From an archaeon (lineage in GTDB: Archaea; Nanobdellota; Nanobdellia; Pacearchaeales; GW2011-AR1): DNA of 64,000 nt. Shown one piece after another: positions 44,026-61,571 of the stretch. Every line of letters starts with the position of its first letter. Positions within the stretch are counted from its first letter, which is position 1. Below the pieces are notes generated by a model, which saw nothing but the letters and a program-made list of their open reading frames with translations, ran no database searches and had not been told where the DNA came from. The translations under genes and the position numbers were made by a program. The stretch covers positions 11,268-75,267 of the forward strand of contig JAZDPV010000018.1 of assembly GCA_043797265.1 (NCBI GenBank), read 5' to 3'.

Positions 44026-45189
44026 TTATAAAAAGATGCATTCAATATTGGGATTTATGTCTTTAATTTGTTCAGATATTTCCTGATTAAATTGCACGGC
44101 GTTTAAAAAAATTCTTAAATTATTTCTATCTTTGGTAATAATATCTTCGGGTTTTCTGCATATAAGGTTTGTTCCATAAAGTCTTTTGTTTTGTTTTGGC
44201 GGACTATTATCCAAAACTCCTTTGAAAATTTTTTCGTCGAGACCGTAGGCAAAAAGTGGGTGGGCAATGAGACTTGCTCCGAATAGCCAGTTTTCTTTAT
44301 CTGGTTTTGCGAATGTTTTTACTTTATTAATTCTTTCTAAAATTCTTTGTCCGTATTGATCAATCATTTTTTTCGTGTATTCTTTCATGTCGCTTAATTC
44401 GTATGATGATGGATGATCAATTTTTTCCGCAACAATCTGGATTGAGTAGTCAGTATAAAAAGATATTTCTTTGATATGAAATCCGTGTTTTAGATGCAAT
44501 TGAATCCAATGTAAATTTGTACAAACTGATGTGTGTTCAAAATTTAATACATTCCCATATCCTTTTGAAAAATTATATTCTTGATTTGGGACAGTGGTGA
44601 TTAGTAGCCCCCCATTTTTTAATGCTTTTCGTGAATTCTCAAAATATTCATTAAAATCCATGAAATGTTCTAGGGTGTGGCATGAGATAATTGTGTCAAA
44701 TTTTTCTTTGAGTTCTTTTGCGGTTTTACTATTAAAGAGGCCGTTATGCACAATTACATTTTCTCGTGGACCAAAGTAAAGTGGGTCAAATACTTCAACC
44801 CCAGAACTATAATAACTTAATAATCGTTGAGTAATTTTCCCTTGCCCGGCACCGATTTCTAAAATTCTTCCACTTTTGTGATGTTTTTTTATTAATTCAA
44901 AAAGTGAATTATATTGCGCTTCCCAAAACTTTCCTATTCCATCAGCATGAAAAATTTCATATAAAACTTCTGGGTCGATGATATCTTTTAGCGTTATGAG
45001 CCCACAGTCTTCGCAAATGCAAATGTTTATTGGGGCGAATTTGTCGTCTTCTCTTGGGGTGTCGATGCAAATCGGCAGAATTGGCATTTTTATATTTACG
45101 TGTGGTGGGATGCTTTCTGAGAGATTAGGAGAAGAACAAGCTGGGCATTTTGTTCTTTGGCTGATGTGTTTTGAAATTTCTTTTTCCAT
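44026..45189 (-). CDS. Zn-ribbon-containing SAM-dependent (C-)methyltransferase (TylC3/NovU-like architecture)
   Basis: N-terminal CPACSS...CEDCG ribbon, a class I MTase tract RILEIGAGQG, and a C-terminal C-methyltransferase-like domain. Confidence 0.65.
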   Translation of the reverse strand: MEKEISKHISQRTKCPACSSPNLSESIPPHVNIKMPILPICIDTPREDDKFAPINICICEDCGLITLKDIIDPEVLYEIFHADGIGKFWEAQYNSLFELIKKHHKSGRILEIGAGQGKITQRLLSYYSSGVEVFDPLYFGPRENVIVHNGLFNSKTAKELKEKFDTIISCHTLEHFMDFNEYFENSRKALKNGGLLITTVPNQEYNFSKGYGNVLNFEHTSVCTNLHWIQLHLKHGFHIKEISFYTDYSIQIVAEKIDHPSSYELSDMKEYTKKMIDQYGQRILERINKVKTFAKPDKENWLFGASLIAHPLFAYGLDEKIFKGVLDNSPPKQNKRLYGTNLICRKPEDIITKDRNNLRIFLNAVQFNQEISEQIKDINPNIECIFL

Positions 45190-45226: not shown

Positions 45227-46639
45227 TTATTGTTCGAATTCTTGTCTTAGCTCTATTAATCTTTCTCTTGATGGGTGAGGCGGGGATGGAAGGTCTAGAA
45301 CTGGAGCTCTGAAAAAATTGACTCCTTGGTCTTTGAATTCGTGGTCTTTGTCTATATAGCCTTTTTTGATACAAAGTTCTCTAATTTCAGTTCCGGGAAA
45401 TGGGTGTAAAAATCTGACGGAGAATCTATCTGGCTGAACTCTTTTGTGTAAGGCGATTGTTTCTTTTATCATTTCTTCTGTTTCGCTAGGGAAACCAATC
45501 ATATAATAGGCTGCGACTTTCATGCCCTCTCTCCTTATTGCTTCTACGGCTTCTTCGATAACTCCGTCTCTCATTGGTCGATTTAATACGTTTTTTCTTA
45601 AATCTGCATTCCCTGATTCCATGCCCATAGCTACCATTTTGCATCCCATCTCGGCTAAAATTTTTGCTTTTCCAGATTCCCCAATAAGGTTTTCGGGGCG
45701 GCTTTGAGTAAAAAAGCCGACGCCTATATTCCCTTTATATAATTCTGCAAATTTTTCAAAATCTTTTCGAGGCATTGCTGTTACATTTTCGTCAATGAGT
45801 TGAATGTGGGTAAATCCGGGTTCTTGTTTTTTCCCCATCATTCTTCTGATGTTTTCTTCTGGACTAAAAAATCTATAATTTCCTGGTTGAATGTCCCCTG
45901 GGGCTTTCATTTTGTGTAGTGCAGAATTTATGCAATAGCTGCATTTGTGGGGACACCCTCTACTCCATTCAAAAAATCCGTAGTTTTCTATTTTGCCTTC
46001 GAATGGGCGAATCCTATGTTTTTCGCTTAATAAGCTCCAGTCTGGGTCGGGGGTTTCGTCCATATGGAGAATGGGATAGCGAGAGTTGGTAATGATTTTG
46101 CCATTGTTTGTCTTCGTAACAAGATTTGGAATATTTGAAGTGTCTTGGTTTGTTTCTAATCTTTTTACTAATTCTAAAAGTGGTCTTTCTCCCTCTCCTA
46201 CGCAAACATAATCGATTGCGGGATTTTGGATTGCTTCATATGGGACGACGGTTGCGTGTGAGCCTCCAATGATTACTGGAATTCCAAGTTTTCTTTTTGT
46301 TGGTAGAATGAAATCGGTTAATGAATGAAATTCGAAAGAAGTTGAAGTAGCGGCAATTAAATCTGGTTTGTATTTTTCTACTTCTTCGTGAAATTTTTCT
46401 GTTAAGTCGACTGTTTCTCTTGTGTGGTCATATCCTGCAACTTTTTTGTATCCCCCTTTTTTACCTTGTCTTATGTCTATATCGTCCTCTAAAAAAGGAG
46501 AATTTTTATCTCGATAAAATGTTGTATCGAATACCTTGGCTTCTATGCCGTTTCTTTTCAAAGCTCCTCCGAGGGTAGCTATTGATATAGGCATGAATCC
46601 GCCCTCTACCCGGTTGTGATAGACAAATATTACTTTCAT
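45227..46639 (-). CDS. B12-binding radical SAM protein (class B rSAM, likely methyltransferase)
   Basis: N-terminal B12-binding Rossmann domain (VIIGGSHATV) followed by the CPHKCSYC (CxxxCxxC) radical SAM core. Confidence 0.85.
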   Translation of the reverse strand: MKVIFVYHNRVEGGFMPISIATLGGALKRNGIEAKVFDTTFYRDKNSPFLEDDIDIRQGKKGGYKKVAGYDHTRETVDLTEKFHEEVEKYKPDLIAATSTSFEFHSLTDFILPTKRKLGIPVIIGGSHATVVPYEAIQNPAIDYVCVGEGERPLLELVKRLETNQDTSNIPNLVTKTNNGKIITNSRYPILHMDETPDPDWSLLSEKHRIRPFEGKIENYGFFEWSRGCPHKCSYCINSALHKMKAPGDIQPGNYRFFSPEENIRRMMGKKQEPGFTHIQLIDENVTAMPRKDFEKFAELYKGNIGVGFFTQSRPENLIGESGKAKILAEMGCKMVAMGMESGNADLRKNVLNRPMRDGVIEEAVEAIRREGMKVAAYYMIGFPSETEEMIKETIALHKRVQPDRFSVRFLHPFPGTEIRELCIKKGYIDKDHEFKDQGVNFFRAPVLDLPSPPHPSRERLIELRQEFEQ

Positions 46640-46724: not shown

Positions 46725-47543
46725 ATGGTTGGTTCAACATATGGTTTGTTTATTGGAGAACTTGTTTCTGTAAGTTTGAATTATTCTATTCCTTCTCATC
46801 TTGAAAATTTAAGTGGTGATGAAAATTTAAGAAGGGTTGATTTGGAAAAATTGTCTGGGGAGTTGGTTTTGGCGGGTTCGTCCCTGGAGAAAAAGAAATC
46901 TGAGGGAACTATTTGGAGGATGGGATTCCCTGGAATGATTTTGGATGTTAATCATATTGGTCAAGCGAGATATGGAGAATTGACTGTTGATGTTTCGCCG
47001 ATACATCCGCATAGAGCTGATTTGGCCTATAAGGGGGATAAATCTCTTTCGAGGACACCTGTTCCTTTGACTGTTGGTGCGATGCTTTTGGACGATGAGG
47101 GGAATGAGGTTTTGGCTGTTCGGGGTGGGAAGGTTGAGAGTGGGAAGGTTGTTTCTTTTCCTGGAGGACATGTGGATTTTGAAAATCCAAGAGTTGAGAG
47201 TCCGGTCGCAGGTTTGTATCGAGAATTTTATGAAGAAGTTGGGATGAAGTTTGATTCTTCAAACCATAAGGCTTCTTTGATTGGGGTTATGAACAATAGT
47301 GATACTAAAGGGATAAATGTACTTTATGCTCTTAAAACACCGTCCTCATTTAAAGAAATAGAGGACTCTTGGAGGAATGCGGGGGATAGATTTGAGCATG
47401 ATTTGCTTTTCCCTGCTACTGGGTCGGATTTGAAAAATCTTGCGAAAGATGGGAAGATGACTCGTGGAGGTAGGGAGCTTGAGACAACTCCTTTTTTTAA
47501 GGATGTCTTTTCTCGTTATTTAGATTTTAAGAGTTTGGTTTAA
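46725..47543 (+). CDS. NUDIX hydrolase with ~110 aa N-terminal extension
   Basis: The Nudix box GGHVDFENPRVESPVAGLYREFYEEVG fits the GX5EX7REUXEEXGU pattern. Confidence 0.7.
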   Translation: MVGSTYGLFIGELVSVSLNYSIPSHLENLSGDENLRRVDLEKLSGELVLAGSSLEKKKSEGTIWRMGFPGMILDVNHIGQARYGELTVDVSPIHPHRADLAYKGDKSLSRTPVPLTVGAMLLDDEGNEVLAVRGGKVESGKVVSFPGGHVDFENPRVESPVAGLYREFYEEVGMKFDSSNHKASLIGVMNNSDTKGINVLYALKTPSSFKEIEDSWRNAGDRFEHDLLFPATGSDLKNLAKDGKMTRGGRELETTPFFKDVFSRYLDFKSLV

Positions 47544-48247
47544 TCTCCGGTATATCCATCACCGAAGGGATAATTTTTTATTGAATATTCGTAGGCTTTT
47601 GGTGTGCCTGTGTCAAACCATGTAAAATTTTTTACTTTTAATCCTTTTTCGAGAAGTGGTTGCATACCATTTGAAATTTGAATTTCTCCGTCGATTATGC
47701 GATTATTTTTTTCTAAGGCGTCCCAAAATGGTTCATAGTCTTTGACGCCCAGTACTCCGATGTAAGCATATTTGTTGTCGGTTTTTATTTTATCGTCTAT
47801 TCTGATAACGGTATCTTCGTTTAGTTTGACGGAACAAAATCTTTCTGAGTCTTTTATTTGAGCTTTGGAAATGCCTAGCCAATTTGAATCTGGGCAAGTG
47901 ATGGTTTCTTTTACCAGGGTATCTCCTGCGATGTGTACAAATGGGCACATTAGATGATTTTTGCATGAGAGTAATGAGTATCCCGCCCCTGAGCCCTCTC
48001 CGACGTATGGGCTCACTTCAACGAATGTTAGTTTTCTGTTTGGATATGCGGTTTTTAGAAATGTGATTAGGGATTCTTTTTTGTGGCCCACTGCTATTAC
48101 AATTTCTATATTTTCGGGGAATTTTTCTATTATATGGCAGATGGTTGGCTTTCCTCTTACTGGGAGTAAAACTTTGTTGAGATGCTGGCTAAAATGTTGC
48201 ATTCGACTACCGACGCCTGCTGCCAAAATGCATACTTTGTAATCCAT
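47540..48247 (-). CDS. Sugar-phosphate nucleotidyltransferase (NTP_transferase / LicC-like), standalone paralog
   Basis: MDYKVCILAAGVGSRM (G-rich NTP loop) and CKNHLMCPF, shared with the fused paralog at 49808. The upstream in-frame ORF extension to 48463 is low-complexity and unlikely to be coding. Confidence 0.75.
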   Translation of the reverse strand: MDYKVCILAAGVGSRMQHFSQHLNKVLLPVRGKPTICHIIEKFPENIEIVIAVGHKKESLITFLKTAYPNRKLTFVEVSPYVGEGSGAGYSLLSCKNHLMCPFVHIAGDTLVKETITCPDSNWLGISKAQIKDSERFCSVKLNEDTVIRIDDKIKTDNKYAYIGVLGVKDYEPFWDALEKNNRIIDGEIQISNGMQPLLEKGLKVKNFTWFDTGTPKAYEYSIKNYPFGDGYTGD

Positions 48248-48340: not shown

Positions 48341-49078
48341 ATGGGAAAAAATAAATATTTGTCCTTGGGGGGTAAAGCTATTTTGATAACTGGTTCTTCT
48401 CGTGGGATTGGGGCAGCGACAGCAAGATTGGCGAAAGAGTATGGGGCCAATGTGATTTTGCATGGGAGGACTGATTCTGAATATTTAAGGGAATTATCAA
48501 ATGAGCTTGATTCTAACTATATTTTTTGTGATGTTGGCGATGAAGATGAGGTGAGAAAAAAAGCTAGGGGTTTGGAGGTAGATGTTTTGGTAAATAATGC
48601 GGGGATTAATCCGTCGAAGACCTTTATGGAATTAACAAATAGCAACTGGAGAGATATTTTTGAAACAAATGTTTTTGGAACTGTTAATTTTTCAAAAGCG
48701 GTTATCCCTGGGATGATGGATAGGGGGCATGGAAAAATAATTAATATAGCTTCTGCTAAGGGTTATTTACATGTTCGTGGAAAACCAGCTTATGCTGCTT
48801 CAAAGGCGGCGATTATGAGATTGACTTCTAGTATGGCTGAAGAATTTGCACCCTATATTTTAGTTAATGCTGTTGCACCAGGTTTTACTGAAACGAAAAT
48901 GACTAAGAATACTATGTCCTCTAAAATTCAGGAACAGATAAATAAAATACCTCTTAGGAGAATAGCCAATCCAAAAGAAATAGCGGAAGTCATTTTGTTT
49001 TTAGCAAGTGATAAATCGAGTTATATTACGGGGCAAACTATCGTTGTTGATGGGGGGTTTAGTATTGCAAGTGGCTAA
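48341..49078 (+). CDS. SDR family NAD(P)-dependent oxidoreductase
   Basis: ITGSSRGIGAA (TGxxxGxG), NNAGI, and YAASKAA (the YxxxK catalytic motif). Confidence 0.85.
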   Translation: MGKNKYLSLGGKAILITGSSRGIGAATARLAKEYGANVILHGRTDSEYLRELSNELDSNYIFCDVGDEDEVRKKARGLEVDVLVNNAGINPSKTFMELTNSNWRDIFETNVFGTVNFSKAVIPGMMDRGHGKIINIASAKGYLHVRGKPAYAASKAAIMRLTSSMAEEFAPYILVNAVAPGFTETKMTKNTMSSKIQEQINKIPLRRIANPKEIAEVILFLASDKSSYITGQTIVVDGGFSIASG

Positions 49079-49092
49079 AACGGAAAAAATTT

Positions 49093-49374
49093 TTATTTTC
49101 CGCAATAGCTTTCTCCATAAGGATAGTTTTTCTTTGCGTGTTCATATGAATTTGGAGTTCCATTGTTGTACCATGTAAAGATTTTTGCCTTGAGCTCGAT
49201 TTCTTTTAATTTTTGAAGTCCATTTGAAACTTGAATTTCTCCGGTAATAATTTCTTTATTTTCTTTAAAGGCATCCCAAAAACTTTTATAATCATAAATT
49301 CCTAAAGGACCAATATGTGCGTGTTTATTGTTTGTTTGAATTTTTTGTGATTTATTTCCATAATTAATTAGCAT
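49093..49374 (-). pseudogene. Truncated C-terminal fragment of a third nucleotidyltransferase paralog
   Basis: The 93 aa product aligns to residues ~150-236 of the 47540 gene (KHAHIGPLGIYDYKSFWDAF...GEIQVSNGLQ...TWYNNGTPNSYEHAKKNYPYG against KYAYIGVLGVKDYEPFWDAL...GEIQISNGMQ...TWFDTGTPKAYEYSIKNYPFG). The N-terminal half of the gene is missing. Confidence 0.55.
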
Positions 49375-49418: not shown

Positions 49419-49724
49419 TTAAATGAATTTTCTTTTCCAATCAAGTATGGTTTTTCGTGTAATTCTTACTCTAAAAGTTTTGTTTAGATAATAAACTGTT
49501 TGTCCTAAGCTTGAACCTTCTTCTAATATTTTTATAGCACTTTTTATAATAATAGGGGAATATCTGAATTTTTTAAAACTATTGTCTATTGTAAAACGTT
49601 TCCGACAATTTTTACATCGATAAATTTTTTTTTCTATAGAAATATTTTTTCTTATTTGAGCAAAGCGTATATTCTTAGAATTGCAATGAGGGCATTTTTT
49701 TAGATTTTTATTCAAATCAAACAT
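49419..49724 (-). mobile_element. IS-like OrfA fragment: zinc-ribbon (CPHC...CKNC) + HTH transposase N-terminal domain (IS1/IS1595-like), no DDE domain
   Basis: 101 aa: CPHCNSKNIRF...YRCKNCRKRFT followed by a helix-turn-helix-like TILDWKRKF. It sits immediately beside the truncated gene, in an AT-rich segment. Confidence 0.45.
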
Positions 49725-49807: not shown

Positions 49808-51436
49808 ATGAAATATAAGGTTTGTATTCTTGCTGCTGGAGAAAACAAACATGTTAGTTATGCTGAAAATTTTCATGTTGCGCTTCTTCCTATTGGGACA
49901 AAGGCGGCCATTAGCAAGATAATTGATAAATTTCCGGAAGATATTGAGATTATTATTGCTGTGGGGTATAATAGTGATTTGATTAAAAATTTTATAAATA
50001 TGGTTTACCCGAGAAAAAATATAACTTTTGTTGATATTGCGAATTATTCTGAGCCGGGTTCTGGGCCGGGACGGTCTTTGTTGATGTGTAAGAATCATTT
50101 AATGTGTCCATTTATTTTTACTTCTGCAGATACTATAGTTTCTGAAGAAATCCCGGAGCCGACCAAAAATTGGATTGGGGTTTCTCGGATTTCTGATTCC
50201 GCAGAGTATTGTATGGCTGAAGTTGAAAATAATGTTGTGACAAAATTTTATGTTAAGATTCCTACCCCGATGCTTTTGAAGATATCTAAAAATTATAAAA
50301 CAATTTTGAATAATGCATTTATTGGCATGGCGGGGGTACATGATTATGATGTTTTTTGGGATGGGCTTGAGAGAAATCAAGAATTGGTTGCGAAAAAATT
50401 GCAGGTTTCAAATGGTCTTTCTGAATTAATTTCTCATTGTATAGAAGCCATTCCTTTTTTTAACTGGTTTTATGTTGGAAATGAAGCGGGATATAATTTT
50501 GCTAATAGATTTTTTGAGAAGAATCCCGTTATTATTAAGCCGGATGAGTTTATTTATTTTGAAAACGGGAAGGTAATAAAATATTTTAAAGATAAAGAAA
50601 TTGTTAAGCAAAGAATTGAAAGGGCATTTAGGCTTCGTGGAATTGTTCCTGAGATAGTTGATAAATCAGATAATTTTTATTCCTATGATTTTATTGAAGG
50701 ACAAACCCTCTCAAAAATTAATGATGTCAAGGTGTTTCGAGAATTATTGGGATTTTGTGAAGATACTATTTGGCAAAAGAAAGAACTGAATGATGCTGAT
50801 ATGAGGAAGTTTTTTCAAGGTTGTAAAAAATTTTACTATGATAAAACGATGGATCGGATTGATAAGTTTTATCGGGAAAATAAAATCGAAGATAGGGAAG
50901 AAATAATTAATGGCGAAAGAGTTCCTCGCCTAAGAGAATTACTTAAGCAACTTGATTGGGAGAAAATTTCCCAGGGGGTTCCAACGATTTTTCATGGAGA
51001 TATTCAGCCAGAAAATATTTTAATTTGTAAGAAGGGATTTCGGTTAATTGATTGGAGACATAATTTTGCTGGTAACATAGAATATGGAGATATTTATTAT
51101 GATTTTGCCAAGTTGCATCATGCGCTTGTTGTAACTCATGATGTAATAAGGAAAAATCAGTTTGATATTCAGAGTAATAAAGATATTATTGGTTATGATT
51201 TTTTTATGAAAAGTAATTTAATGGAATATAAGGATATTTTCGAAAAGTTTGTTGCTGATAAAGGTTATGATTTGGATAAATTGAAGATACTCAGCGCTTT
51301 GACTTTTTTAAATATTGCACCATTACATCATTTGCCTTATAATAAGTTTCTTTATTATCTTGGGAAATATAGTTTATTTAAGGAAATCGGTCACAATAAT
51401 TCTTATAAACTAAAAAATATGGCGGGTAGTGTTTAA
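49808..51436 (+). CDS. Bifunctional sugar-phosphate nucleotidyltransferase / APH-ChoK-type kinase
   Basis: The N-terminal ~240 aa are an NTP_transferase (MKYKVCILAAG, CKNHLMCPF). The C-terminal ~300 aa carry HGDIQPENILI and IDWRH (the aminoglycoside/choline kinase catalytic loop and DxxH-like motif). Confidence 0.75.
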   Translation: MKYKVCILAAGENKHVSYAENFHVALLPIGTKAAISKIIDKFPEDIEIIIAVGYNSDLIKNFINMVYPRKNITFVDIANYSEPGSGPGRSLLMCKNHLMCPFIFTSADTIVSEEIPEPTKNWIGVSRISDSAEYCMAEVENNVVTKFYVKIPTPMLLKISKNYKTILNNAFIGMAGVHDYDVFWDGLERNQELVAKKLQVSNGLSELISHCIEAIPFFNWFYVGNEAGYNFANRFFEKNPVIIKPDEFIYFENGKVIKYFKDKEIVKQRIERAFRLRGIVPEIVDKSDNFYSYDFIEGQTLSKINDVKVFRELLGFCEDTIWQKKELNDADMRKFFQGCKKFYYDKTMDRIDKFYRENKIEDREEIINGERVPRLRELLKQLDWEKISQGVPTIFHGDIQPENILICKKGFRLIDWRHNFAGNIEYGDIYYDFAKLHHALVVTHDVIRKNQFDIQSNKDIIGYDFFMKSNLMEYKDIFEKFVADKGYDLDKLKILSALTFLNIAPLHHLPYNKFLYYLGKYSLFKEIGHNNSYKLKNMAGSV

Positions 51437-52259
51437 AATGGTAAAAAAATTAATTGATGAAACTTCGCGTTATCGTTTTGAAAGGATTTACGAAGGAGGG
51501 AGTAATATGTGTGAGTTAGGATCTACTGATAAATTATCAACTACATTTATTCATCATGGGAGCGTTGCGTTGCGTTTCCCATCGCAAAAGAATCGCGGAG
51601 AAGTATTTAAACTTTCTCAAGGGCAGGGATTTATTCTTGCGCCAGGAATTTCATGCAGCCTCTATAATTCTGGAAGACTTGTTGCATATACTGTTTCTTC
51701 AAAAATTGATCGAGAAAGTCCAATAGTTGAAATTATAGAATTTGAAAGCGATAGGAAAGAGGTTGTTTTGGGGGATTTTAGGATTATTAGAGATCCGAAG
51801 AGGGTAGAAAAACCGTGGGGACATGAGTTGTGGGTAAGTTGGTTTATGAATCATCATGTATTGAAACAAATTGGGATGAGTAAAGGTATGCAATCAAGTT
51901 TGCAATTCCATCGAGAAAAACTTGAGACAAATTACCTCGAAAGTGGACGCGCTGACGTGATCGAAGGATATAAATTAAATCCCTTAACTCCCGAGGAAGA
52001 GGTGCTAAAATCTTTAGATGGGATTAATTTTGATGAATATAAAAAAAGAATGTCTCCTGGGGATCATTGGACCTCCCAGGCAGGAACGGCGCATCGAGTA
52101 ATGGCGGTTACGGATTATTTGGCGTATGAAGTTTCAACGCCAGAGTTGGATGATGTTATTAGATTACAGGATGATTCGTGTAGAAATTCTGGGAGGATTG
52201 ATTCTGAACATATGGTAGCTGGAGGTAAAAAATGGGAAAAGACAGAAGGGGGAAGCTGA
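51429..52259 (+). CDS. Cupin-domain protein, mannose-6-phosphate isomerase type II C-terminal-like
   Basis: KPWGHELWV...GMSKGMQSSLQFHREKLETNYLESGRADV matches the PMI-type cupin pattern. Confidence 0.6.
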   Translation: MFKMVKKLIDETSRYRFERIYEGGSNMCELGSTDKLSTTFIHHGSVALRFPSQKNRGEVFKLSQGQGFILAPGISCSLYNSGRLVAYTVSSKIDRESPIVEIIEFESDRKEVVLGDFRIIRDPKRVEKPWGHELWVSWFMNHHVLKQIGMSKGMQSSLQFHREKLETNYLESGRADVIEGYKLNPLTPEEEVLKSLDGINFDEYKKRMSPGDHWTSQAGTAHRVMAVTDYLAYEVSTPELDDVIRLQDDSCRNSGRIDSEHMVAGGKKWEKTEGGS

Positions 52260-53554
52260 TTCAACTTTATATTAATGAAAAGAGAAAAATTTTAGATACT
52301 TTTCCGGTGAAAAATGTGGTTGATGCTGCTAATTTAGTAGTGAGTACTTATCTTAATGATGGCACTGTTTTTTCTTGTGGGAATGGAGGAAGTGTCTCTT
52401 ATGCTGAATGTTTGGATCTTTATTTATCGAATCATCCGTTCGTAAGAAATGATAAGGGCCGCCCTCTTTCAGAGGATGTTAAAAGATTAAGAACTTATAA
52501 TTTAACTTCTTCAAGTGGGGATTTAACGGGAATAGCTAATGATTTTGGGTTTGGGTTTGTGTTTGGGAACCAATTAGAGGCTCAAAGAATAAAGGAAGGT
52601 GATTTAGTAGTGGGTTTTACTAGTAGTGGAAATACGAAGAATGTTTTATATGCTTTTGAGATAGCGAAGAAACATAATGCAAAGACTTTCGTTATAACAA
52701 AAGGCAGTGGGGGAAGCGCAAAAGATTTGGCTGATTTGTGTATTGCAATTCCTGGCGATTCTAATTTCCCAGGACAAATAGGTAAGAATAATAATTGTTT
52801 CCACTATGAAGATTCAATAATGTCTATTATCCATATGATTACTGGTCTTCTTAAGAAAAGAATCCAGCAAATTTATGGACATAAAGAAGATTCGGGGAAA
52901 GCCTACTTATTTGATTGCGAATTGGTTCGTCTTTATTTAAAGGAGGCGAAAGAGTGTTTGGATAATTTCCCAGTGAGTGATGTTTCTAATATGGCAAAAA
53001 TGATAGAAGAAGCTTATTTCAATGGGGGTTCTTTGTATTTGTGTGGAAATGGTTCTAATGCAACTTTGTTGGGGAATTTAAGTTGCGACCTTGGAATACA
53101 TCCCTTTGTTGGGGAAGATAAATCTAAATCTAAGTTTGATGATGTAAAAAGATTTAGAGTAGTAAATCTTGCCGATTCGGGTTCAAGAATTTCGGGTTAT
53201 GCGAATGATTATGGTATTAGAGAAATATTTAGCCAACAACTAAGAAATCTTAGAATCGGAAGGGATGATTTAGTAATTGGATTTACTGGAAGTGGAAATT
53301 CTTCTAATATTCTTGAGGCATTTAGAGTAGCAAAAAAACATCAATCAAAAACTGTGGGGATCATGAGAAGGGAGAGCGGTTGTGTAGAAGAATTGAGTGA
53401 CTTATGTATTAAAGTTTCTACTGACTCAGAATTCCCAGGACAAATGGGAAAAAATCAAGGCAATTTTCATTATGAAGATTCTCTTTTGAGTATTAGCCAT
53501 ATTGTTACGGGGATATTATTATCTAGAATTGAGGAGATTAATTCAAAAGATTAA
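52232..53554 (+). CDS. Tandem double SIS-domain isomerase (GmhA/phosphoheptose isomerase-like x2)
   Basis: Two internal repeats, each with CGNGGS/CGNGSN, a GFT(S/G)SGN(T/S) loop and a downstream FPGQ(I/M)GKN..(C/N)FHYEDS tract. Confidence 0.8.
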   Translation: MGKDRRGKLIQLYINEKRKILDTFPVKNVVDAANLVVSTYLNDGTVFSCGNGGSVSYAECLDLYLSNHPFVRNDKGRPLSEDVKRLRTYNLTSSSGDLTGIANDFGFGFVFGNQLEAQRIKEGDLVVGFTSSGNTKNVLYAFEIAKKHNAKTFVITKGSGGSAKDLADLCIAIPGDSNFPGQIGKNNNCFHYEDSIMSIIHMITGLLKKRIQQIYGHKEDSGKAYLFDCELVRLYLKEAKECLDNFPVSDVSNMAKMIEEAYFNGGSLYLCGNGSNATLLGNLSCDLGIHPFVGEDKSKSKFDDVKRFRVVNLADSGSRISGYANDYGIREIFSQQLRNLRIGRDDLVIGFTGSGNSSNILEAFRVAKKHQSKTVGIMRRESGCVEELSDLCIKVSTDSEFPGQMGKNQGNFHYEDSLLSISHIVTGILLSRIEEINSKD

Positions 53555-54436
53555 ATGGGAAACATAGATAAAAACACAATTGATTTATTGAAAGAGATTG
53601 CAAAAGATATTAGAAGAAGAACTTTAACTTCAATTTATACGGCAGGATCTGGTCATTATGGGTCTTCTTTGTCTTGGTCGGAGATAGCTTCAACTCTTTT
53701 TTTCCATGAGATGAAACTTAACGCGAAAAGTTCACGAGCAAGATTTGCGTGCCCCCCCGTTGAGATTTCTAATTCTTTAGAAAGAGATGTTTTTATTTTA
53801 TCTAAAGGCCATGGGGTTCCGACATTGTATTCTGTAATTTCTATTTTGAATCCTAAATATATCTCTCGGGAAAATATTTTAACCCTGAGAAAAATGGGTA
53901 GTCCTCTTCAAGGCCATCCCGTTAGGAATCTTTTGCCTTTAATTGATGCTAGCACTGGGTCTTTAGGTCAGGGATTATCCATAGGTGCGGGAATTGCATA
54001 TGCTATTAAACAAAAAGGGGAAGACAGAAGGGTGTATGTTTTGCTTGGAGATGGAGAAATTCAAGAAGGGCAAAATTGGGAAGCATTTATGTCTTCTGCA
54101 AATTTGAGATTGGAAAATTTGACGATAATTGTTGATAAAAATAACTGCCAATTAGAAGGCCCTATTGGGGGAAAAATGCCGTTGGAAAATTTGCCAAATA
54201 TCTTAGATTGTTTTGGTTTTTATGTTCAGTGTGTTGATGGTCATAATGTTCCACAAATATTAGATTCTTATGAAAATGCCAGACAAACATCTCTAAGAAC
54301 TGGGAGGCCATCATTCATAATTGCTAATACCGTAAAGGGGAAGGGGGTTTCGTTGATGGAAAGGGAACCTTGGAAGTGGCATAGTAAATTAATGGATGTC
54401 GATGATTATCTTGTTGCAATGAGGGAGTTAGAATGA
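53555..54436 (+). CDS. Transketolase, N-terminal (TPP-binding) subunit
   Basis: AGSGHYGSSLS, SKGHGVPTLY, and a GDGEIQEG TPP motif. Confidence 0.9.
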   Translation: MGNIDKNTIDLLKEIAKDIRRRTLTSIYTAGSGHYGSSLSWSEIASTLFFHEMKLNAKSSRARFACPPVEISNSLERDVFILSKGHGVPTLYSVISILNPKYISRENILTLRKMGSPLQGHPVRNLLPLIDASTGSLGQGLSIGAGIAYAIKQKGEDRRVYVLLGDGEIQEGQNWEAFMSSANLRLENLTIIVDKNNCQLEGPIGGKMPLENLPNILDCFGFYVQCVDGHNVPQILDSYENARQTSLRTGRPSFIIANTVKGKGVSLMEREPWKWHSKLMDVDDYLVAMRELE

Positions 54437-55380
54437 CCGTATTAGAAAGAATTGCTACCAGAGATGGCTTTGGAAAGTCTTTGTTAGAAAATGGCGGTGA
54501 TTTGAAAATCATTGTTTTTGGCTGTGATTTAACTGTGGCAACAAATACTAATGGTTTTGCAAAAAAATTCCCTAAGAGATTTTGTGAAGTTGGGATTCAA
54601 GAACAAAATGCTATTGGAATGGCTGCGGGTTTAGCGATTGAAGGTTTTAGGCCCGTTGTTCCAAGTTTTGGATCTTTTATTACAGGAAGAGCTTATGAGC
54701 AAATAATGATATCTTTGGGATATAATGATGTGGGTGCTTTAATTGTGGGAACTCATTCTGGATTGGCGATAGGAAAAGATGGTCAGACGCAGATGGGAAT
54801 TACTGATATTAATGTAATGAGGGGGATTCCTAGAATGGAAATTTTTCAGCCAGCAGATGCCATAGAAGCACGCCAAATAACTGATTATTTGCTTAGGGCT
54901 TCTAATTTAGCTTATTTGAGATTGTCAAGGACCCCCTCTCCTTTTGTTTTGCCCGAAGATTATAAATTTGAATTTAATAAGGCGAAGATACTTAGGGGCG
55001 GGAAAAATTTAATCTTTATAGCAAGTGGTGATACTGTATACAATTGTTTGGAGGCCTCAAAGGAACTGTATAATCGCGGAGATATTGATTCGTCAGTAAT
55101 CAATGTTTCTACCTTAAAACCAATTGATGAAGAAACGATTCTTGATTGTGCTAGAAAAGTCAAGGGCATTGTTATAGTAGAGGATCATTCTACGATAGGG
55201 GGATTGGCTACAATTGTTTCTGAAGTAATTACTAAATATGGCGTAGGAACTCGGGTAAAAAGTATAGGCATTGAAGGATTTGGGGAAAGTGGTGACCCAA
55301 AAGATTTATATGAAAAACACGGGATGAATGTTGGAGGGATAATAAAAACTGCTTTAAATTTTTATGAAAATTTAGATTAG
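54433..55380 (+). CDS. Transketolase, C-terminal (pyrimidine-binding) subunit
   Basis: FCEVGIQEQNAIGMAAGLA...SFGSFI...GTHSGLAIGKDGQTQMG. The start overlaps the stop of the N-terminal subunit gene. Confidence 0.9.
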   Translation: MTVLERIATRDGFGKSLLENGGDLKIIVFGCDLTVATNTNGFAKKFPKRFCEVGIQEQNAIGMAAGLAIEGFRPVVPSFGSFITGRAYEQIMISLGYNDVGALIVGTHSGLAIGKDGQTQMGITDINVMRGIPRMEIFQPADAIEARQITDYLLRASNLAYLRLSRTPSPFVLPEDYKFEFNKAKILRGGKNLIFIASGDTVYNCLEASKELYNRGDIDSSVINVSTLKPIDEETILDCARKVKGIVIVEDHSTIGGLATIVSEVITKYGVGTRVKSIGIEGFGESGDPKDLYEKHGMNVGGIIKTALNFYENLD

Positions 55381-55430: not shown

Positions 55431-55898
55431 TTATGAGTTGGGGTTTTTGAAGAAAAATTTATTAATTCTTATACATGCGTCACAAACCGCACCTTCTCCT
55501 GATTTTGGAACGGTTACAAAATCTGCGGCCCTTTTTGCTTCAATTCTTGCGTTTGCGGGAGCAATGCCGATTTTACAGGCCTTGATTATTGGCGCATCAA
55601 ATATTCCATCTCCCATAAAAATGGTATTTTCGAATCCAAATTTTTCTTTTATATAAGAATACCTCTCTTGTTCGGCTACGAGTTCTATCGGGTACCCCAT
55701 ATCATCAATTCTTTTTTTTGAGATTGGGAATCCCGTTTTATCGGCTGTTATAAAAAATATATTAACCTTGTCTTTGATTAGTTTTAACCCATCGGCATCG
55801 TGAGCCCCAAAAATTTTATATTCTTTTCCATCTTTGGAATATAAAAATTGTCCTGTGGTCATAACGCCATCTATATCCAATACAAAATTCATTTTCAT
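55431..55898 (-). CDS. HAD-superfamily KdsC/GmhB-like sugar-phosphate phosphatase
   Basis: The N-terminal DIDGVMTTG (DxDGV HAD motif I) and the overall 155 aa size/pattern match the KdsC family. Confidence 0.7.
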   Translation of the reverse strand: MKMNFVLDIDGVMTTGQFLYSKDGKEYKIFGAHDADGLKLIKDKVNIFFITADKTGFPISKKRIDDMGYPIELVAEQERYSYIKEKFGFENTIFMGDGIFDAPIIKACKIGIAPANARIEAKRAADFVTVPKSGEGAVCDACIRINKFFFKNPNS

Positions 55899-55949: not shown

Positions 55950-56633
55950 TTATATTTTTTTGATTTGTTTTAAATACTTTAATGCAACAAAACTTTTCCA
56001 GACTTTTTTCCAAGAATATTTGAAATCAGTGATTAATCTATATGCCCATTCTACTCCCAATCTTCTAAATATTGTTGGAGATTCTTTCTTCTTTTCTAGC
56101 AAGAAATCCATTGCTGCGCCCACGGTGAAATAGAATGTTGGGTATTTTTTATACAATTGATTTGCCAAAATCTCTTGTTTTGGATTTCCAATGCATATCC
56201 AAATATATTTTGGTTTTATTTTTTTTAATTTGTTTAGGATTGTTTTTTCTTCTTTTTTTGGAAAAATTATTTCTTTTATATATGGCGGATTGTGTGTTTG
56301 AGAATTTTTTAGTTTTGGGAATTTTTTTATTAATATTTTTAGGTCTCTTTCTGATGGTCCAATGAAGAAATGTTTTTGATTATTACTCAACTTCTTTTCA
56401 AAGAAATTTTTTGTGAAGGATGGTCCCCTGATTTGTTTTATCCGTAAAAATAAACTTATCGTTTTCCCGTCTGGAAAGATGAAATTATTTGGGGAGGTTA
56501 TCGCTTTTTGAAAAATTGGTTCATGATTGAATAGGTATATGGAATATAGATTTTGGAAATTTAAGATTCCATTTTTATTAGATCTCATAATTTCTTCTGG
56601 TGTTTTTTTTGTAAAAACTATTTGTTTTTTCAT
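55950..56633 (-). CDS. WecB/TagA/CpsF-family glycosyltransferase (GT26)
   Basis: FPDGK, HFFIGPSE, IGNPKQE, VGAAMDF and GVEWAYRL fit the GT26 pattern. Confidence 0.7.
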   Translation of the reverse strand: MKKQIVFTKKTPEEIMRSNKNGILNFQNLYSIYLFNHEPIFQKAITSPNNFIFPDGKTISLFLRIKQIRGPSFTKNFFEKKLSNNQKHFFIGPSERDLKILIKKFPKLKNSQTHNPPYIKEIIFPKKEEKTILNKLKKIKPKYIWICIGNPKQEILANQLYKKYPTFYFTVGAAMDFLLEKKKESPTIFRRLGVEWAYRLITDFKYSWKKVWKSFVALKYLKQIKKI

Positions 56634-57986
56634 TTTCTAAAGAGTATCAAGCCACCAAGGTATCCTAATCTACTTATGATTGTTGCGATACATACTCCTA
56701 TAACTGCATAGGACATTGAATACATTAGCCCAATGTTAATAAATATGTAATTTAAAACAACATTAAGAATTGTTGAGGATATTAATAATATTGAAATTAT
56801 TTTTGTTCTCTTTTGGCTGATATAATATGCATTATAAAGTGAGATTAGTGGGAAAGTAACTATTAAAATTGTGAGATATTGAAAGTATATTGTTGATTCT
56901 ACATAAGAATTTCCGTAGATTACATTAATTAATAGTTTGGCAGTTAAAATGGTGAATATTAGTATTATGATTGATATTGTGAATGTGGTGTTTTTTATTT
57001 TTTTAAATCCTCTTTCTAGCTGATTGCCCTTCATTCGTGAAAAAATTGGGAAAAGTGCCGATGAAGAAACACTTAAAATTGCCGTTATTGAAGAAACAAG
57101 ATTAAGGGCTGCTTGATAGAATCCTATAAATTTTGAGCTAATGTAATGCCCTAGCATAAAAATGTCGATATACCCGAAGAAAAGCCCTGAAATGGCAATT
57201 GTACTTAGTAGTGTAATAAATTTCCAAAGTTTTTTTCTCTCTTTTTTTGTTAGTTTTTGTTTCTTAATATTTTTAAAGGGGTTGTGAGACAAAAAATAAA
57301 TTAGATAATAAGTCCCTGTTAATATAAACGTAGCCGATAGTCCAATAAACATCCAGAAAAGAATTATATCATTGTTTGATGTTTTCGAGATTAATAATAG
57401 AATAAGTAGTGGCAGAATTATTAATTTAGAAATTTGTAATATTAATTCTCCTATAAATCCTACTTTAAAATTGTTTTTTGAAATGAAAATCACCTCGAGA
57501 AAATTGTATAATGTAGATAGTGGGAGATATATTGCTCCAGCGAGTAGAGCATAAAAAATTGGTTTTTGATAGTAGTTATTTGCGAGCCATCTTGCTAAAA
57601 TTAAAATAATTAAGGATGCAAATATAACTAATCTAATCTTGATTTTACTTATATAATTAAAATATGCTTTTGCTTTTGCTTTTTTTTTTGTCGATTGTTT
57701 TAGAAACAAAGGTTAGCATGGTTGTAGAAATACCTAAATCTGAAAATGCAGAAATTAAAAGTATTGTTGATAGAGCTAGCCCATATAAACCAAAGAGTTC
57801 TGGCATTAATAATCTGGCAATTATAATTGTGAATATTATCGACCCTATTTTTGCTGTTAGTGTTGTTGCAAGTTGATAAGTTGAGTTTTTTATTGCTTGT
57901 CCAGAATTTCCCTTAAGGTCTCTTCTTTTTATTCTTCCGAAAATTACCCTTATTTCTTTGGCTTCTTTTTTTATAGCATTGTCCAT
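56630..57986 (-). pseudogene. Wzx-like polysaccharide flippase split by a -1/+1 frameshift in an A11 homopolymer (ORFs 57657-57986 and 56630-57709)
   Basis: The N-terminal 109 aa ORF and the C-terminal 359 aa ORF are both polytopic and together have the size of a Wzx/PST flippase. The frames switch inside the run at 57686-57696. Confidence 0.6.
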
Positions 57987-60997: not shown

Positions 60998-61103
60998 GCG
61001 TGGATAGTATAATGGTTAGTATAACTGGTTTCCAAATACTTAGTTCCAAAAGAATTAGATATGAAAATACCAGTTGATCGGGGTTCGAATCCCCGTCCGC
61101 GCA
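60998..61103 (+). tRNA. tRNA-Trp (CCA) with ~32-nt intron 3' of the anticodon
   Basis: Acceptor GCGTGGA/TCCGCGC + A. Anticodon stem CTGGT/ACCAG with loop TTCCAAA, interrupted by tacttagttccaaaagaattagatatgaaaat. T-arm CGGGG-TTCGAAT-CCCCG. Confidence 0.7.
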
Positions 61104-61251
61104 TTTTAATCAATAACTTTTTATATAAACATTTCTCAGTAATTTTGTGAGGAGATGCCTACGCTATTTGCGATTTGCATTTGCTCAAGATAGAGAAGAT
61201 TCGGTTCGCAAAAGCGAATCGCTCGGTCAAACTGTTTGACCGTAAATTAAC

Positions 61252-61334
61252 GAGGAGATGCCGGAGTGGTCAAACGGGCCAGACTCAAGATCTGGTGGCT
61301 TATGCCTACGGGGGTTCGAATCCTCCTCTCCTCA
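61252..61334 (+). tRNA. tRNA-Leu (CAA)
   Basis: Acceptor GAGGAGA/TCTCCTC + A. Anticodon stem CCAGA/TCTGG with loop CTCAAGA. Long variable arm. T-arm GGGGG-TTCGAAT-CCTCC. Confidence 0.8.
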
Positions 61335-61351
61335 TTTGTCAAGGATAAATT

Positions 61352-61427
61352 GCTCTCGTAACTCAGCCTGGATTAGAGTGCGTCCCCCCTAAGGACGAAG
61401 TCGTAGGTTCAAATCCTACCGAGAGCG
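61352..61427 (+). tRNA. tRNA-Arg (CCU)
   Basis: Acceptor GCTCTCG/CGAGAGC + G. Anticodon stem CGTCC/GGACG with loop CCCCTAA. T-arm GTAGG-TTCAAAT-CCTAC. Confidence 0.7.
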
Positions 61428-61459
61428 TTAAGTTTATAAAATGGAATTTTATTGAATTG

Positions 61460-61571
61460 TTAGACGGCCATAGTAACTTGGTCACACCCGATCCCATTCC
61501 GAACTCGGAAGTTAAGCTTGTTACGTTCGTGTTTGTACTGTCTTTGATGGGAAGGCACGGAGCTGTCTGCT
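61460..61571 (+). rRNA. rrf: 5S ribosomal RNA (standalone, next to tRNAs)
   Basis: GACGGCCATAG...CCCGATCCCATTCCGAACTCGGAAGTTAAGC...GGGAAGGCACGG are conserved 5S blocks. The terminal helix pairs AGACGGC with GCTGTCT. Confidence 0.8.

What the first reader, a model, noticed from the sequence alone, without database searches (positions are those of the whole stretch)
49808..51436. Unusual domain fusion: sugar-1-P nucleotidyltransferase + aminoglycoside/choline-kinase-like phosphotransferase
A single 542 aa ORF joins an N-terminal NTP_transferase fold to a C-terminal APH/ChoK kinase carrying the HGDIQPENILI catalytic loop. The two activities, phosphorylate then nucleotidylate, are the same pair found in HldE or LicA+LicC, but the fold combination here is different. 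An alternative reading is a LicA/LicC-type phosphocholine or phosphoethanolamine activation enzyme for glycan decoration.
Basis: seen in the sequence. Interest (0 to 1): 0.6.

Follow-up and report, generated by a model that had tools for sequence, protein, structure and literature searches.

The report
Sugar kinase fused to degenerate nucleotidyltransferase
The 542-residue fusion gene is real, but it belongs to a widespread family of sugar-activating enzymes rather than being a rarity, and in this archaeon its nucleotidyltransferase half has lost its catalytic signature while an intact stand-alone copy sits 1.5 kb away.

Summary
The ORF at 49808-51436 (+) is intact. It joins an N-terminal nucleotidyltransferase (NT) fold to a C-terminal APH/choline-kinase-like kinase whose catalytic motifs are all present.

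The fusion is not unusual. There are 646 clusters at 50% identity with E<=1e-30, and at least 218 species of DPANN archaea, CPR and other bacteria carry it, as do phages. The closest studied relatives are the phage AfhE-type enzymes (RB69 gp52:53). These phosphorylate C1 of arabinose-5-P and, after a HAD phosphatase acts, make UDP-arabinose.

Here the gene heads an operon with a PMI-like cupin, a tandem GmhA-like isomerase and a split transketolase. A KdsC-like HAD phosphatase lies nearby, and the whole sits in a low-GC glycan island just downstream of AglB.

The new point is that the fused NT domain has lost G13, R15, K24, E197 and D222. An intact paralogous stand-alone NT is encoded at 47540-48247 (-). 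Across 83 loci, 16 of 20 degenerate domains have such a stand-alone NT, against 1 of 63 canonical ones.

Most likely mechanism: the kinase makes a sugar-1,n-bisphosphate (probably a heptose), the HAD removes the distal phosphate, and the stand-alone NT makes the NDP-sugar. The sugar identity is unresolved.

The parts
49808..51436 (+). NT-kinase fusion gene (542 aa), first gene of a five-gene operon with overlapping or abutting starts
   Evidence: ORF. Full-length homologues. AlphaFold model with pLDDT 92.
49808..50521 (+). N-terminal NT-fold domain (residues 1-238) with a degenerate catalytic signature: G13N, R15H, K24V, E197K, D222Y. D108 and the GSGPG motif are retained.
   Evidence: Foldseek matches to PntC, GalU, RmlA, IPCT, LicC. 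Motif alignment. 39% identity to the stand-alone NT. As conserved as the kinase domain within its clade.
50540..51418 (+). C-terminal APH/ChoK-fold kinase domain (residues ~245-537) with K258, H396-G-D398, N403, D415 and the IDWR and YYDxAK motifs
   Evidence: Pfam APH. Invariant columns. Foldseek to ethanolamine/choline kinases, APH(2'') and FN3K at E~1e-5. hhalign to RB69 gp52, 95.7%.
47540..48247 (-). Stand-alone NT (235 aa), a paralogue of the fused NT domain with an intact signature (AAGVGSRM...NKVLLP, D in GDT). Proposed to be the active nucleotidyltransferase of the pathway.
   Evidence: Pfam/NCBIfam NT hits. Canonical GGRK+D pattern. Listed in NCBI as a 235-aa protein. 40-59% identity to fused NT domains of other genomes.
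51429..52259 (+). Cupin protein (276 aa). Its C-terminal half resembles the type II phosphomannose isomerase domain.
   Evidence: Present in 76 of 85 loci. Homologues hit PF01050 / TIGR01479 GMP_PMI. Fused N-terminally to the NT-kinase in P0050/L005.
52232..53554 (+). Tandem GmhA-like SIS isomerase (440 aa, two SIS_2 halves)
   Evidence: NCBIfam gmhA, E 6e-39, below the equivalog cut-off. 27-29% identity to E. coli GmhA. Fused C-terminally to the NT-kinase in P0030/L001.
53555..55380 (+). Split transketolase: N subunit 53555-54436, C subunit 54433-55380
   Evidence: Pfam and NCBIfam. Co-occurs with SIS in 15 loci and is nearly mutually exclusive with the GatZ-like gene: only L046 shows both, and its GatZ match is weak.
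55431..55898 (-). KdsC-family HAD phosphatase (155 aa, DxD motif). Proposed to remove the distal phosphate.
   Evidence: NCBIfam KdsC, E 1e-15. PDB profile hits to KdsC/YrbI, E 1e-16 to 1e-23. Present in 69 of 85 loci.
48341..49078 (+). Classical SDR oxidoreductase (245 aa). Takes the place held by a shikimate-dehydrogenase-like reductase in other loci.
   Evidence: Pfam. SDR in 17 loci and SDH-like in 38 loci, never both.
49096..49374 (-). Remnant of a second stand-alone NT copy (C-terminal 84 aa only)
   Evidence: 56% identity to the C-terminus of the 47543-48247 product.
44026..45189 (-). TylC3-like sugar C-methyltransferase (387 aa), an accessory member of the module
   Evidence: Pfam Methyltransf_13/23. 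Homologues in 30 of 83 loci, often abutting the NT-kinase gene.

Best explanation
The gene encodes a cellular member of the AfhE-type NT-kinase family and works inside an NDP-sugar pathway of an AglB-linked glycan island. The proposed route has five steps, all inferred rather than shown.

1. The split transketolase supplies a ketose phosphate, most simply sedoheptulose-7-P.
2. The GmhA-like SIS protein, possibly with the PMI-like cupin, converts it to the aldose phosphate.
3. The C-terminal kinase domain phosphorylates the anomeric hydroxyl, giving a sugar-1,n-bisphosphate.
4. The KdsC-like HAD phosphatase removes the distal phosphate.
5. A nucleotidyltransferase converts the sugar-1-P to the NDP-sugar.

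In this organism step 5 is most likely carried out by the stand-alone paralogue at 47540-48247 (-), not by the fused domain. The fused domain has lost G13, R15, K24, E197 and D222. It is still kept under purifying selection, presumably as a structural or ligand-binding (regulatory) module.

An SDR, a C-methyltransferase and other methyltransferases probably tailor the sugar.

What the data show directly is the anatomy, the homology, the conserved neighbourhood and the link between a degenerate motif and a stand-alone NT. The order of steps, the substrate and the inactivity of the NT domain are inferences.

Homology to phage enzymes:
- PMC13326640 describes the phage enzymes as a bifunctional arabinose-5-P 1-kinase / UDP-arabinose pyrophosphorylase that works with a SIS isomerase and a HAD phosphatase.
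- The kinase profile against RB69 gp52 gives 95.7%, E 9e-9, over 228 columns.
- The control against E. coli ThiK gives only 30% over 37 columns.
- The full-length profile against phage 9183 ORF047 gives 99.7%, E 1e-25, over 466 columns.

Conserved neighbourhood over 85 loci:
- Cupin in 76 loci and KdsC-like HAD in 69.
- A GatZ-like class II aldolase/epimerase in 61, or transketolase plus SIS in 15-17.
- An SDH-like protein in 38, or an SDR in 17.
- Natural fusions of the NT-kinase to SIS, to the cupin and to the GatZ-like protein.

Operon structure and context:
- The operon genes overlap or abut.
- The AglB gene and glycosyltransferase genes surround the operon.

NT degeneration:
- Motif alignments.
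- All 17 stand-alone NTs are canonical.
- The 2x2 table is [[16, 4], [1, 62]], Fisher p = 1.5e-12.
- Degenerate domains fall in about ten separate lineages of a neighbour-joining tree.
- The NT-like domain is as conserved as the kinase domain within the degenerate clade (64.5% against 62.2%).
Against: - No biochemistry exists for any cellular member of the family.
- HY126 AfhE itself was not compared. Only its RB69 and phage 9183 homologues were.
- The NT-domain match to RB69 gp53 is weak (39% probability).
- The HAD here is of the KdsC type and shares only the superfamily with the phage phosphatase.
- The SIS protein scores below the GmhA equivalog cut-offs and has insertions near the catalytic His/Glu, so the substrate need not be sedoheptulose-7-P.
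- Most loci use a GatZ-like enzyme instead of transketolase plus SIS. The family as a whole therefore cannot be assigned to heptose.
- The roles of the cupin and the reductase are unexplained.
- R15 is retained in 7 of the 11 members of this degenerate clade in alignment A1 (the window protein and its 10 closest relatives), and N13 is conserved in all of them. A non-canonical but active NT site is therefore not excluded.
- The Fisher test is not corrected for phylogeny, and the tree has no bootstrap support.
- Four degenerate loci show no stand-alone NT, and two of those lie near contig ends.
Confidence: 0.55

Rival explanations
1. The protein is fully bifunctional. The fused NT domain remains catalytically active with a non-canonical loop, and the stand-alone NT activates a different sugar.
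For: - D108, the GSGPG motif and K150 are retained.
- N13 is conserved in the clade, and R15 is kept in most relatives.
- The domain is under purifying selection.
- Glycan clusters often carry several NTs, for example an unrelated PF00483 NT in L074.
Against: - Five family-invariant or near-invariant positions are changed in this protein.
- The stand-alone NT is a paralogue of this very domain and is almost confined to loci where the fused motif is degenerate (16 of 20 against 1 of 63).
- Unrelated NTs show no such pattern.
Confidence: 0.2
2. Salvage-type order of steps. The HAD phosphatase first releases the free sugar, and the kinase then acts as an anomeric kinase on the unphosphorylated sugar, as AmgK or NahK do. 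NT transfer follows.
For: - Known APH-fold anomeric kinases act on free sugars (my own knowledge of AmgK, NahK and MtnK).
- KdsC-family phosphatases normally act on monophosphates such as Kdo-8-P.
Against: - The closest studied relatives are described as phosphorylating arabinose-5-P to the 1,5-bisphosphate, with the HAD acting afterwards.
- The Arg of the family-wide IDWR motif is shared with RB69 gp52 (IDPR), whereas ThiK has IDWE. This would fit a phosphate-binding role, but that is an inference.
Confidence: 0.15
3. A LicC-LicA (LicCA)-type enzyme that activates choline, ethanolamine or another small alcohol as a CDP-alcohol for glycan decoration.
For: - The fold pair and the domain order match LicCA.
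- The best Foldseek hits include PntC, LicC and IPCT for the NT domain, and ethanolamine/choline kinases for the kinase domain.
Against: - There is no PF01633 Choline_kinase hit.
- The structural matches to choline kinases are weak (TM ~0.45).
- All conserved partners and natural fusions are sugar-phosphate enzymes.
- No LicB or LicD-like gene was seen among the Pfam annotations of the island.
Confidence: 0.05
4. The fusion is an artefact: two genes joined by a missed stop codon or frameshift.
For: None found.
Against: - The ORF is continuous.
- An identical protein exists in an independent NCBI record.
- Hundreds of homologues of the same length match in a single stretch across residues ~3-527.
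- The pTM of 0.87 indicates a defined two-domain arrangement.
Confidence: 0.01

Closest known systems
Phage AfhE-type bifunctional D-arabinose-5-P 1-kinase / UDP-arabinose pyrophosphorylase (HY126 AfhE, RB69 gp52:53, DLP3 gp82; described in PMC13326640); also Enterococcus phage 9183 ORF047
   Same: - N-terminal NT plus C-terminal APH-like kinase in one ~540-aa protein.
- Sequence homology: kinase domain 95.7% against RB69 gp52, full length 99.7% against phage 9183 ORF047.
- Partnered with a SIS ketose-P/aldose-P isomerase and a small HAD phosphatase.
- The same kinase, then phosphatase, then NT logic.
   Different: - This is a cellular (archaeal) gene in a glycan island rather than a DNA-modification cluster.
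- The SIS partner is GmhA-like rather than KdsD-like, so a different sugar is likely.
- The HAD is of the KdsC type.
- Extra conserved partners are present: cupin, transketolase or GatZ-like protein, reductase, C-methyltransferase.
- The NT catalytic signature is lost here and replaced in trans.
HldE / HddA-GmhB-HddC heptose nucleotide pathways
   Same: - Same chemical logic: isomerase, then C1 kinase, then distal phosphatase, then NT.
- A GmhA-like isomerase is present.
- A GT9-family (heptosyltransferase family) gene lies in one related locus, L001.
   Different: - The kinase fold differs. It is APH/ChoK-like here, against the PfkB fold in HldE or the GHMP fold in HddA (my own knowledge of those families).
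- The phosphatase is KdsC-like, not GmhB-like.
- The substrate is not established.
AmgK-MurU and LicA-LicC / LicCA
   Same: - An APH/ChoK-fold kinase paired with a small MurU/LicC-like NT.
- MurU and LicC are among the Foldseek hits.
   Different: - Those kinases act on a free sugar or on choline and have no isomerase or phosphatase partners.
- There is no specific sequence similarity.
GMPPA/GMPPB (a catalytically inactive NT paralogue paired with an active one)
   Same: A degenerate NT-fold module is retained alongside an active paralogue. GMPPA/B appears among the structural hits (7d74).
   Different: This is an analogy only. No interaction or allostery was tested here.

Membership tests
AfhE-type NT-kinase (phage sugar-phosphate 1-kinase / NDP-sugar pyrophosphorylase) | One polypeptide with an N-terminal sugar-1-P NT fold and a C-terminal APH-like kinase | tested here: met
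   Model and Foldseek on both domains.
AfhE-type NT-kinase (phage sugar-phosphate 1-kinase / NDP-sugar pyrophosphorylase) | Sequence homology to phage representatives beyond generic APH similarity | tested here: met
   RB69 gp52: 95.7%, E 9e-9. Phage 9183 ORF047: 99.7%, E 1e-25. ThiK control: 30%. HY126 AfhE itself was not available.
AfhE-type NT-kinase (phage sugar-phosphate 1-kinase / NDP-sugar pyrophosphorylase) | Intact kinase catalytic residues | tested here: met
   K258, H396, D398, N403 and D415 are invariant.
AfhE-type NT-kinase (phage sugar-phosphate 1-kinase / NDP-sugar pyrophosphorylase) | Intact NT catalytic signature (GxGxR...K and acidic metal ligands) | tested here: not met
   G13N, R15H, K24V, E197K, D222Y. 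RB69 gp53 has GAGLATR...PK.
AfhE-type NT-kinase (phage sugar-phosphate 1-kinase / NDP-sugar pyrophosphorylase) | Genomic partnership with a SIS isomerase and a HAD phosphatase | tested here: met
   SIS lies in the same operon. HAD is 4 kb away and present in 69 of 85 loci. The HAD belongs to a different subfamily from RB69 gp51.
AfhE-type NT-kinase (phage sugar-phosphate 1-kinase / NDP-sugar pyrophosphorylase) | Kinase activity on C1 of a sugar phosphate, and NDP-sugar formation | not testable with these tools
   Needs enzymology.
HldE (bifunctional heptose-7-P kinase / heptose-1-P adenylyltransferase) | PfkB-type kinase domain plus a cytidylyltransferase-like NT domain | tested here: not met
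   Pfam and NCBIfam give APH and RmlA/GlmU-type NT matches only, with no PfkB or CTP_transf_like hit. Foldseek agrees.
LicCA / LicA+LicC (choline kinase + CTP:phosphocholine cytidylyltransferase) | Choline_kinase family (PF01633) kinase domain | tested here: not met
   No PF01633 hit at E<=1. Structural matches to choline kinases are only weak.
LicCA / LicA+LicC (choline kinase + CTP:phosphocholine cytidylyltransferase) | Association with choline uptake or transfer genes (LicB, LicD) | tested here: not met
   None appear among the annotated genes of the island or the conserved neighbours.
GmhA (sedoheptulose-7-P isomerase), for the downstream SIS protein | Score above the curated equivalog cut-off, and conserved catalytic Glu/His | tested here: inconclusive
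   E 6e-39 but 134 bits against a cut-off of 209. The C-terminal His is conserved, but the region around H61/E65 carries an insertion.

The most novel reading that the evidence does not exclude
The window carries one version of a widespread, uncharacterised route to a nucleotide-activated rare sugar. In this archaeon the sugar is probably a heptose, possibly C- or O-methylated. The route is independent of HldE and HddA and is built on an AfhE-like kinase. Within it, the fused nucleotidyltransferase domain has repeatedly become a pseudoenzyme, kept as a scaffold or product sensor, whenever a stand-alone paralogue takes over catalysis.
Probability: 0.4. Interest if true: 0.65.

Novelty: new variant of a known kind. 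Interest (0 to 1): 0.5.

Why it matters
- It ties a recently described phage DNA-arabinosylation enzyme type to a much larger cellular family. That family has at least 646 clusters at 50% identity and is annotated everywhere only as 'phosphotransferase'.
- It defines a conserved gene module of six to eight genes that probably makes an unknown NDP-sugar for surface glycans of DPANN archaea, CPR bacteria and many other bacteria.
- It gives a clean natural experiment in pseudoenzyme evolution. A catalytic domain loses its signature about ten times, nearly always with a paralogue nearby. This is directly testable with a few recombinant proteins.
- For annotation, proteins of this clade should not be called bifunctional on domain content alone.

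Tried and rejected
- Missed stop or frameshift: rejected.
- Sequence searches of the PDB with the protein and with kinase-domain profiles: only marginal protein-kinase hits, which were not informative.
- tblastn against plasmids: no match.
- Literature searches for the gene cluster (heptose / APH / transketolase / GatZ / cupin terms): nothing specific. The AfhE lead came from a side hit.
- HAD against RB69 gp51: no specific homology, so the phosphatase partner is analogous rather than orthologous.
- Cupin profile against the PDB: no significant hit.
- An aromatic-pathway reading of the transketolase plus shikimate-dehydrogenase-like genes: rejected. The SDH-like gene also accompanies GatZ-type loci that lack transketolase, and a DAHP-synthase-like gene occurs in only 1 of 85 loci.
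- An unrelated PF00483 NT as a general second NT: sporadic only.
- The strong GC skew in the first half of the window: explained by a ribosomal-protein operon, so it is not an anomaly.
- Single-linkage clustering of neighbouring ORFs: partly spoiled by fusion proteins and antisense ORFs. It was used only to spot the C-methyltransferase.
Full report
**Observation**

The ORF at 49808-51436 (+) is intact and encodes 542 aa. An identical protein is on record as 'MAG: phosphotransferase [archaeon]' (P0001).

Pfam finds only the kinase half: APH PF01636, residues 280-438, E 5e-7, above the gathering score. The N-terminal half gives only sub-threshold NT matches: Arch_glmU at E 7e-7 and IPCT at E 0.018.

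An AlphaFold model built on 50 homologues is confident (pLDDT 92.3, pTM 0.87). Foldseek places residues 1-~240 in the sugar-phosphate nucleotidyltransferase fold, with matches to PntC, GalU, RmlA, IPCT, LicC, HddC and MurU at E 4e-12 to 1e-9.

A separate model of residues 238-542 (pLDDT 90.9) matches ethanolamine/choline kinases, APH(2''), FN3K, macrolide phosphotransferases and glucosamine kinase. These matches are weak (E ~1e-5, TM ~0.45). The domain is therefore a distinct family within the APH/ChoK fold.

K258, H396-G-D398, N403 and D415 are invariant in the family.

**How common the fusion is**

- The word-indexed search returned 655 hits, nearly all full length.
- The exhaustive HMMER scan found 646 clusters at 50% identity with E<=1e-30 and 1150 with E<=1e-10. 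Typical hits are 510-545 aa and match in one stretch over residues ~3-527.
- A scan of species-representative genomes found at least 218 species. These include Pacearchaeota, Woesearchaeota, Nanoarchaeota, Micrarchaeota, many CPR phyla, Omnitrophota, Proteobacteria (SAR86, Sedimenticola, Nitrotoga, Arcobacter, Legionellaceae, Paraglaciecola) and the isolate Chlorobium ferrooxidans DSM 13031.
- Public names are uniformly generic.

The fusion is widespread, not unusual.

**Context in the window**

- The gene heads a tight operon. It is followed by a cupin (51429-52259), a tandem SIS protein (52232-53554), transketolase N (53555-54436) and transketolase C (54433-55380).
- The SIS protein is GmhA-like (E 6e-39, below the equivalog cut-off; 27-29% identity to E. 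coli GmhA).
- A KdsC-family HAD phosphatase lies at 55431-55898 (-).
- An SDR lies at 48341-49078.
- An NT lies at 47540-48247 (-).
- All of this sits in a low-GC island (about 33-58 kb). The island is full of glycosyltransferases, methyltransferases, a B12-radical-SAM enzyme and a flippase.
- The island lies directly downstream of AglB/STT3 (30509-33202), SecY and an archaeal ribosomal-protein operon. The pathway therefore most likely feeds protein or surface glycosylation.

**Conserved module**

I blasted the window's proteins and those of related loci against 85 loci.
- The cupin is present in 76.
- The KdsC-like HAD is present in 69.
- Either a GatZ/KbaZ-like class II aldolase/epimerase (61 loci) or transketolase N + C plus SIS (15-17 loci) is present. 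The two are nearly mutually exclusive: only L046 shows both, and its GatZ match is weak. The GatZ-like protein has conserved D75, H76, H106 and H214.
- Either a shikimate-dehydrogenase-like reductase (38 loci) or an SDR (17 loci) is present. The SDH-like protein is closest to HI0607 SdhL and to 5-ketofructose reductase.
- A TylC3-like C-methyltransferase occurs in 30 of 83 loci, often abutting the NT-kinase gene. The window has one at 44026-45189 (-).

Natural fusions tie the parts together:
- NT-kinase-SIS (P0030/L001).
- Cupin-NT-kinase (P0050/L005).
- NT-kinase-GatZ (P0099/L004).

**Closest studied relatives**

A tblastn search against phage genomes found a full-length homologue in a marine virus contig and kinase-domain matches in Enterococcus phages.

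PMC13326640 reports the following.
- HY126 AfhE, and its homologues RB69 gp52:53 and DLP3 gp82, are bifunctional. They have an N-terminal MurU/LicC-like NT and a C-terminal APH-like kinase.
- AfhE phosphorylates arabinofuranose-5-P to the 1,5-bisphosphate.
- A HAD phosphatase (AfhF) removes the 5-phosphate.
- The NT domain then makes UDP-arabinose.
- The substrate comes from a SIS arabinose-5-P isomerase.

The profile comparisons give:

| Query profile | Target | Probability | E-value | Columns |
|---|---|---|---|---|
| Kinase domain | RB69 gp52 | 95.7% | 9e-9 | 228 |
| Kinase domain | E. coli ThiK (generic APH control) | 30% | - | 37 |
| Full length | Phage 9183 ORF047 (544 aa) | 99.7% | 1e-25 | 466 |
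| Full length (NT part) | RB69 gp53 | 39% | - | - |

- The match to RB69 gp52 includes the shared ID(W/P)R and YDxAK motifs.
- Phage 9183 ORF047 sits next to a HAD and a thymidylate-synthase homologue.
- The window's HAD is not specifically related to RB69 gp51.

The family relationship and the kinase, phosphatase, NT logic are therefore well founded. The sugar is not.

**The degenerate NT domain**

- The family consensus is ILAAGxGxR(x8)NKALLP. The window protein reads ILAAGENKHVSYAENFHVALLP, which gives G13N, R15H and K24V.
- Its relatives at 58% identity or more share G13N and the loss of K24.
- The window protein additionally has E197K (GExQ changed to KKLQ) and D222Y (WFDxG changed to WFYVG). 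Two clade members have D222N.
- From general knowledge of RmlA/GlmU-type enzymes, these positions form the NTP-binding loop and a metal or sugar ligand. I did not test this.
- The stand-alone NT at 47540-48247 (-) is a paralogue of this very domain. It is 39% identical to the window's fused domain (E 7e-63) and 40-59% identical to fused domains of other genomes. It has the intact signature.
- Across 83 non-redundant loci, 20 have a degenerate fused signature and 16 of those encode such a stand-alone paralogue. Of 63 canonical loci, only one does (Fisher p = 1.5e-12).
- All 17 stand-alone copies are canonical.
- In a neighbour-joining tree the degenerate domains fall in about ten separate lineages. 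Most stand-alone NTs form one clade.
- Unrelated NT genes show no such pattern.
- Within the window's clade the NT-like domain (residues 29-238) is as conserved as the kinase domain (64.5% against 62.2% mean pairwise identity). It is retained for some function and is not decaying.
- The high pTM suggests it packs rigidly against the kinase.

My reading is that NT catalysis has moved to the stand-alone paralogue. The fused domain would then serve as a scaffold or ligand-binding module, analogous to GMPPA/GMPPB. That analogy is untested.

**Mechanism and its limits**

The best-supported scheme for this window has five steps.
1. Transketolase supplies a ketose phosphate.
2. The GmhA-like SIS protein converts it to an aldose phosphate.
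3. The kinase domain makes the 1,n-bisphosphate.
4. The KdsC-like HAD makes the sugar-1-P.
5. The stand-alone NT makes the NDP-sugar, which the SDR and methyltransferases then tailor.

Evidence favouring a heptose:
- The SIS protein is GmhA-like.
- A dedicated transketolase is present.
- One related locus carries a GT9-family gene.

Several points remain open.
- The roles of the cupin and the reductase are unexplained.
- It is unclear how a GatZ-like enzyme can stand in for transketolase plus SIS.
- The step order (kinase before phosphatase) is inferred.
- The nucleotide used is unknown.

**Verdict**

- The LicA/LicC alternative is not supported.
- This is a new variant of a known kind of enzyme.
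- It is of moderate interest, mainly for the recurrent loss of the NT signature with a paralogue taking over, and for the uncharacterised pathway around it.

Noticed in passing
window 49096-49374 (-) and 49419-49724 (-): A 93-aa ORF is the C-terminal remnant of a second stand-alone NT paralogue (56% identity over 84 aa to the 47543-48247 product). Where its N-terminal part should be lies a 101-aa zinc-ribbon ORF, which may be a mobile-element insertion. In relatives (L006, L007, L011) an intact stand-alone NT lies upstream of the NT-kinase gene on the opposite strand (about 0.4-0.5 kb away).
   Followed up: partly
window 56630-57709 (-) and 57657-57986 (-): Two overlapping ORFs hit the C-terminal and N-terminal parts of a Wzx/Polysacc_synt flippase. 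This is a split or frameshifted flippase gene, either a pseudogene or an assembly error.
   Followed up: no
window 33000-58000 against 1-33000: The glycan island has 26-35% GC against 40-46% in the flanking ribosomal-protein / SecY / AglB region, which suggests horizontal acquisition. The very strong GC skew (0.4-0.57) in the first 34 kb coincides with the same-strand ribosomal-protein operon.
   Followed up: partly
window 60998-61571 (+): A tRNA cluster and a 5S rRNA gene. The Rfam tRNA hit at 60998-61103 is 106 nt long and was not called by ARAGORN, so it is probably an intron-containing archaeal tRNA.
   Followed up: no
L074 3163-14350 (Chlorobium ferrooxidans DSM 13031) and similar proteobacterial loci: A compact operon in this order: NT, unknown 416-aa protein, HAD, GatZ-like, unknown 274-aa protein, cupin, NT-kinase, TylC3-like C-methyltransferase, further methyltransferase. 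The 274-aa protein has no Pfam hit and recurs in 14 loci next to the cupin. This is a cultivable organism in which the pathway could be studied.
   Followed up: partly
L089 3730-5705 (Enterococcus phage 9183): A 544-aa NT-kinase homologue lies directly after a small HAD hydrolase, a dUTPase and a thymidylate-synthase homologue. This looks like a DNA-hypermodification sugar-activation cassette in a Gram-positive phage.
   Followed up: partly
window 45227-46639 (-) and related loci L002, L005: B12-binding radical-SAM enzymes recur in these glycan clusters (four copies in L002), together with many SAM methyltransferases. This hints at heavily methylated glycans.
   Followed up: no
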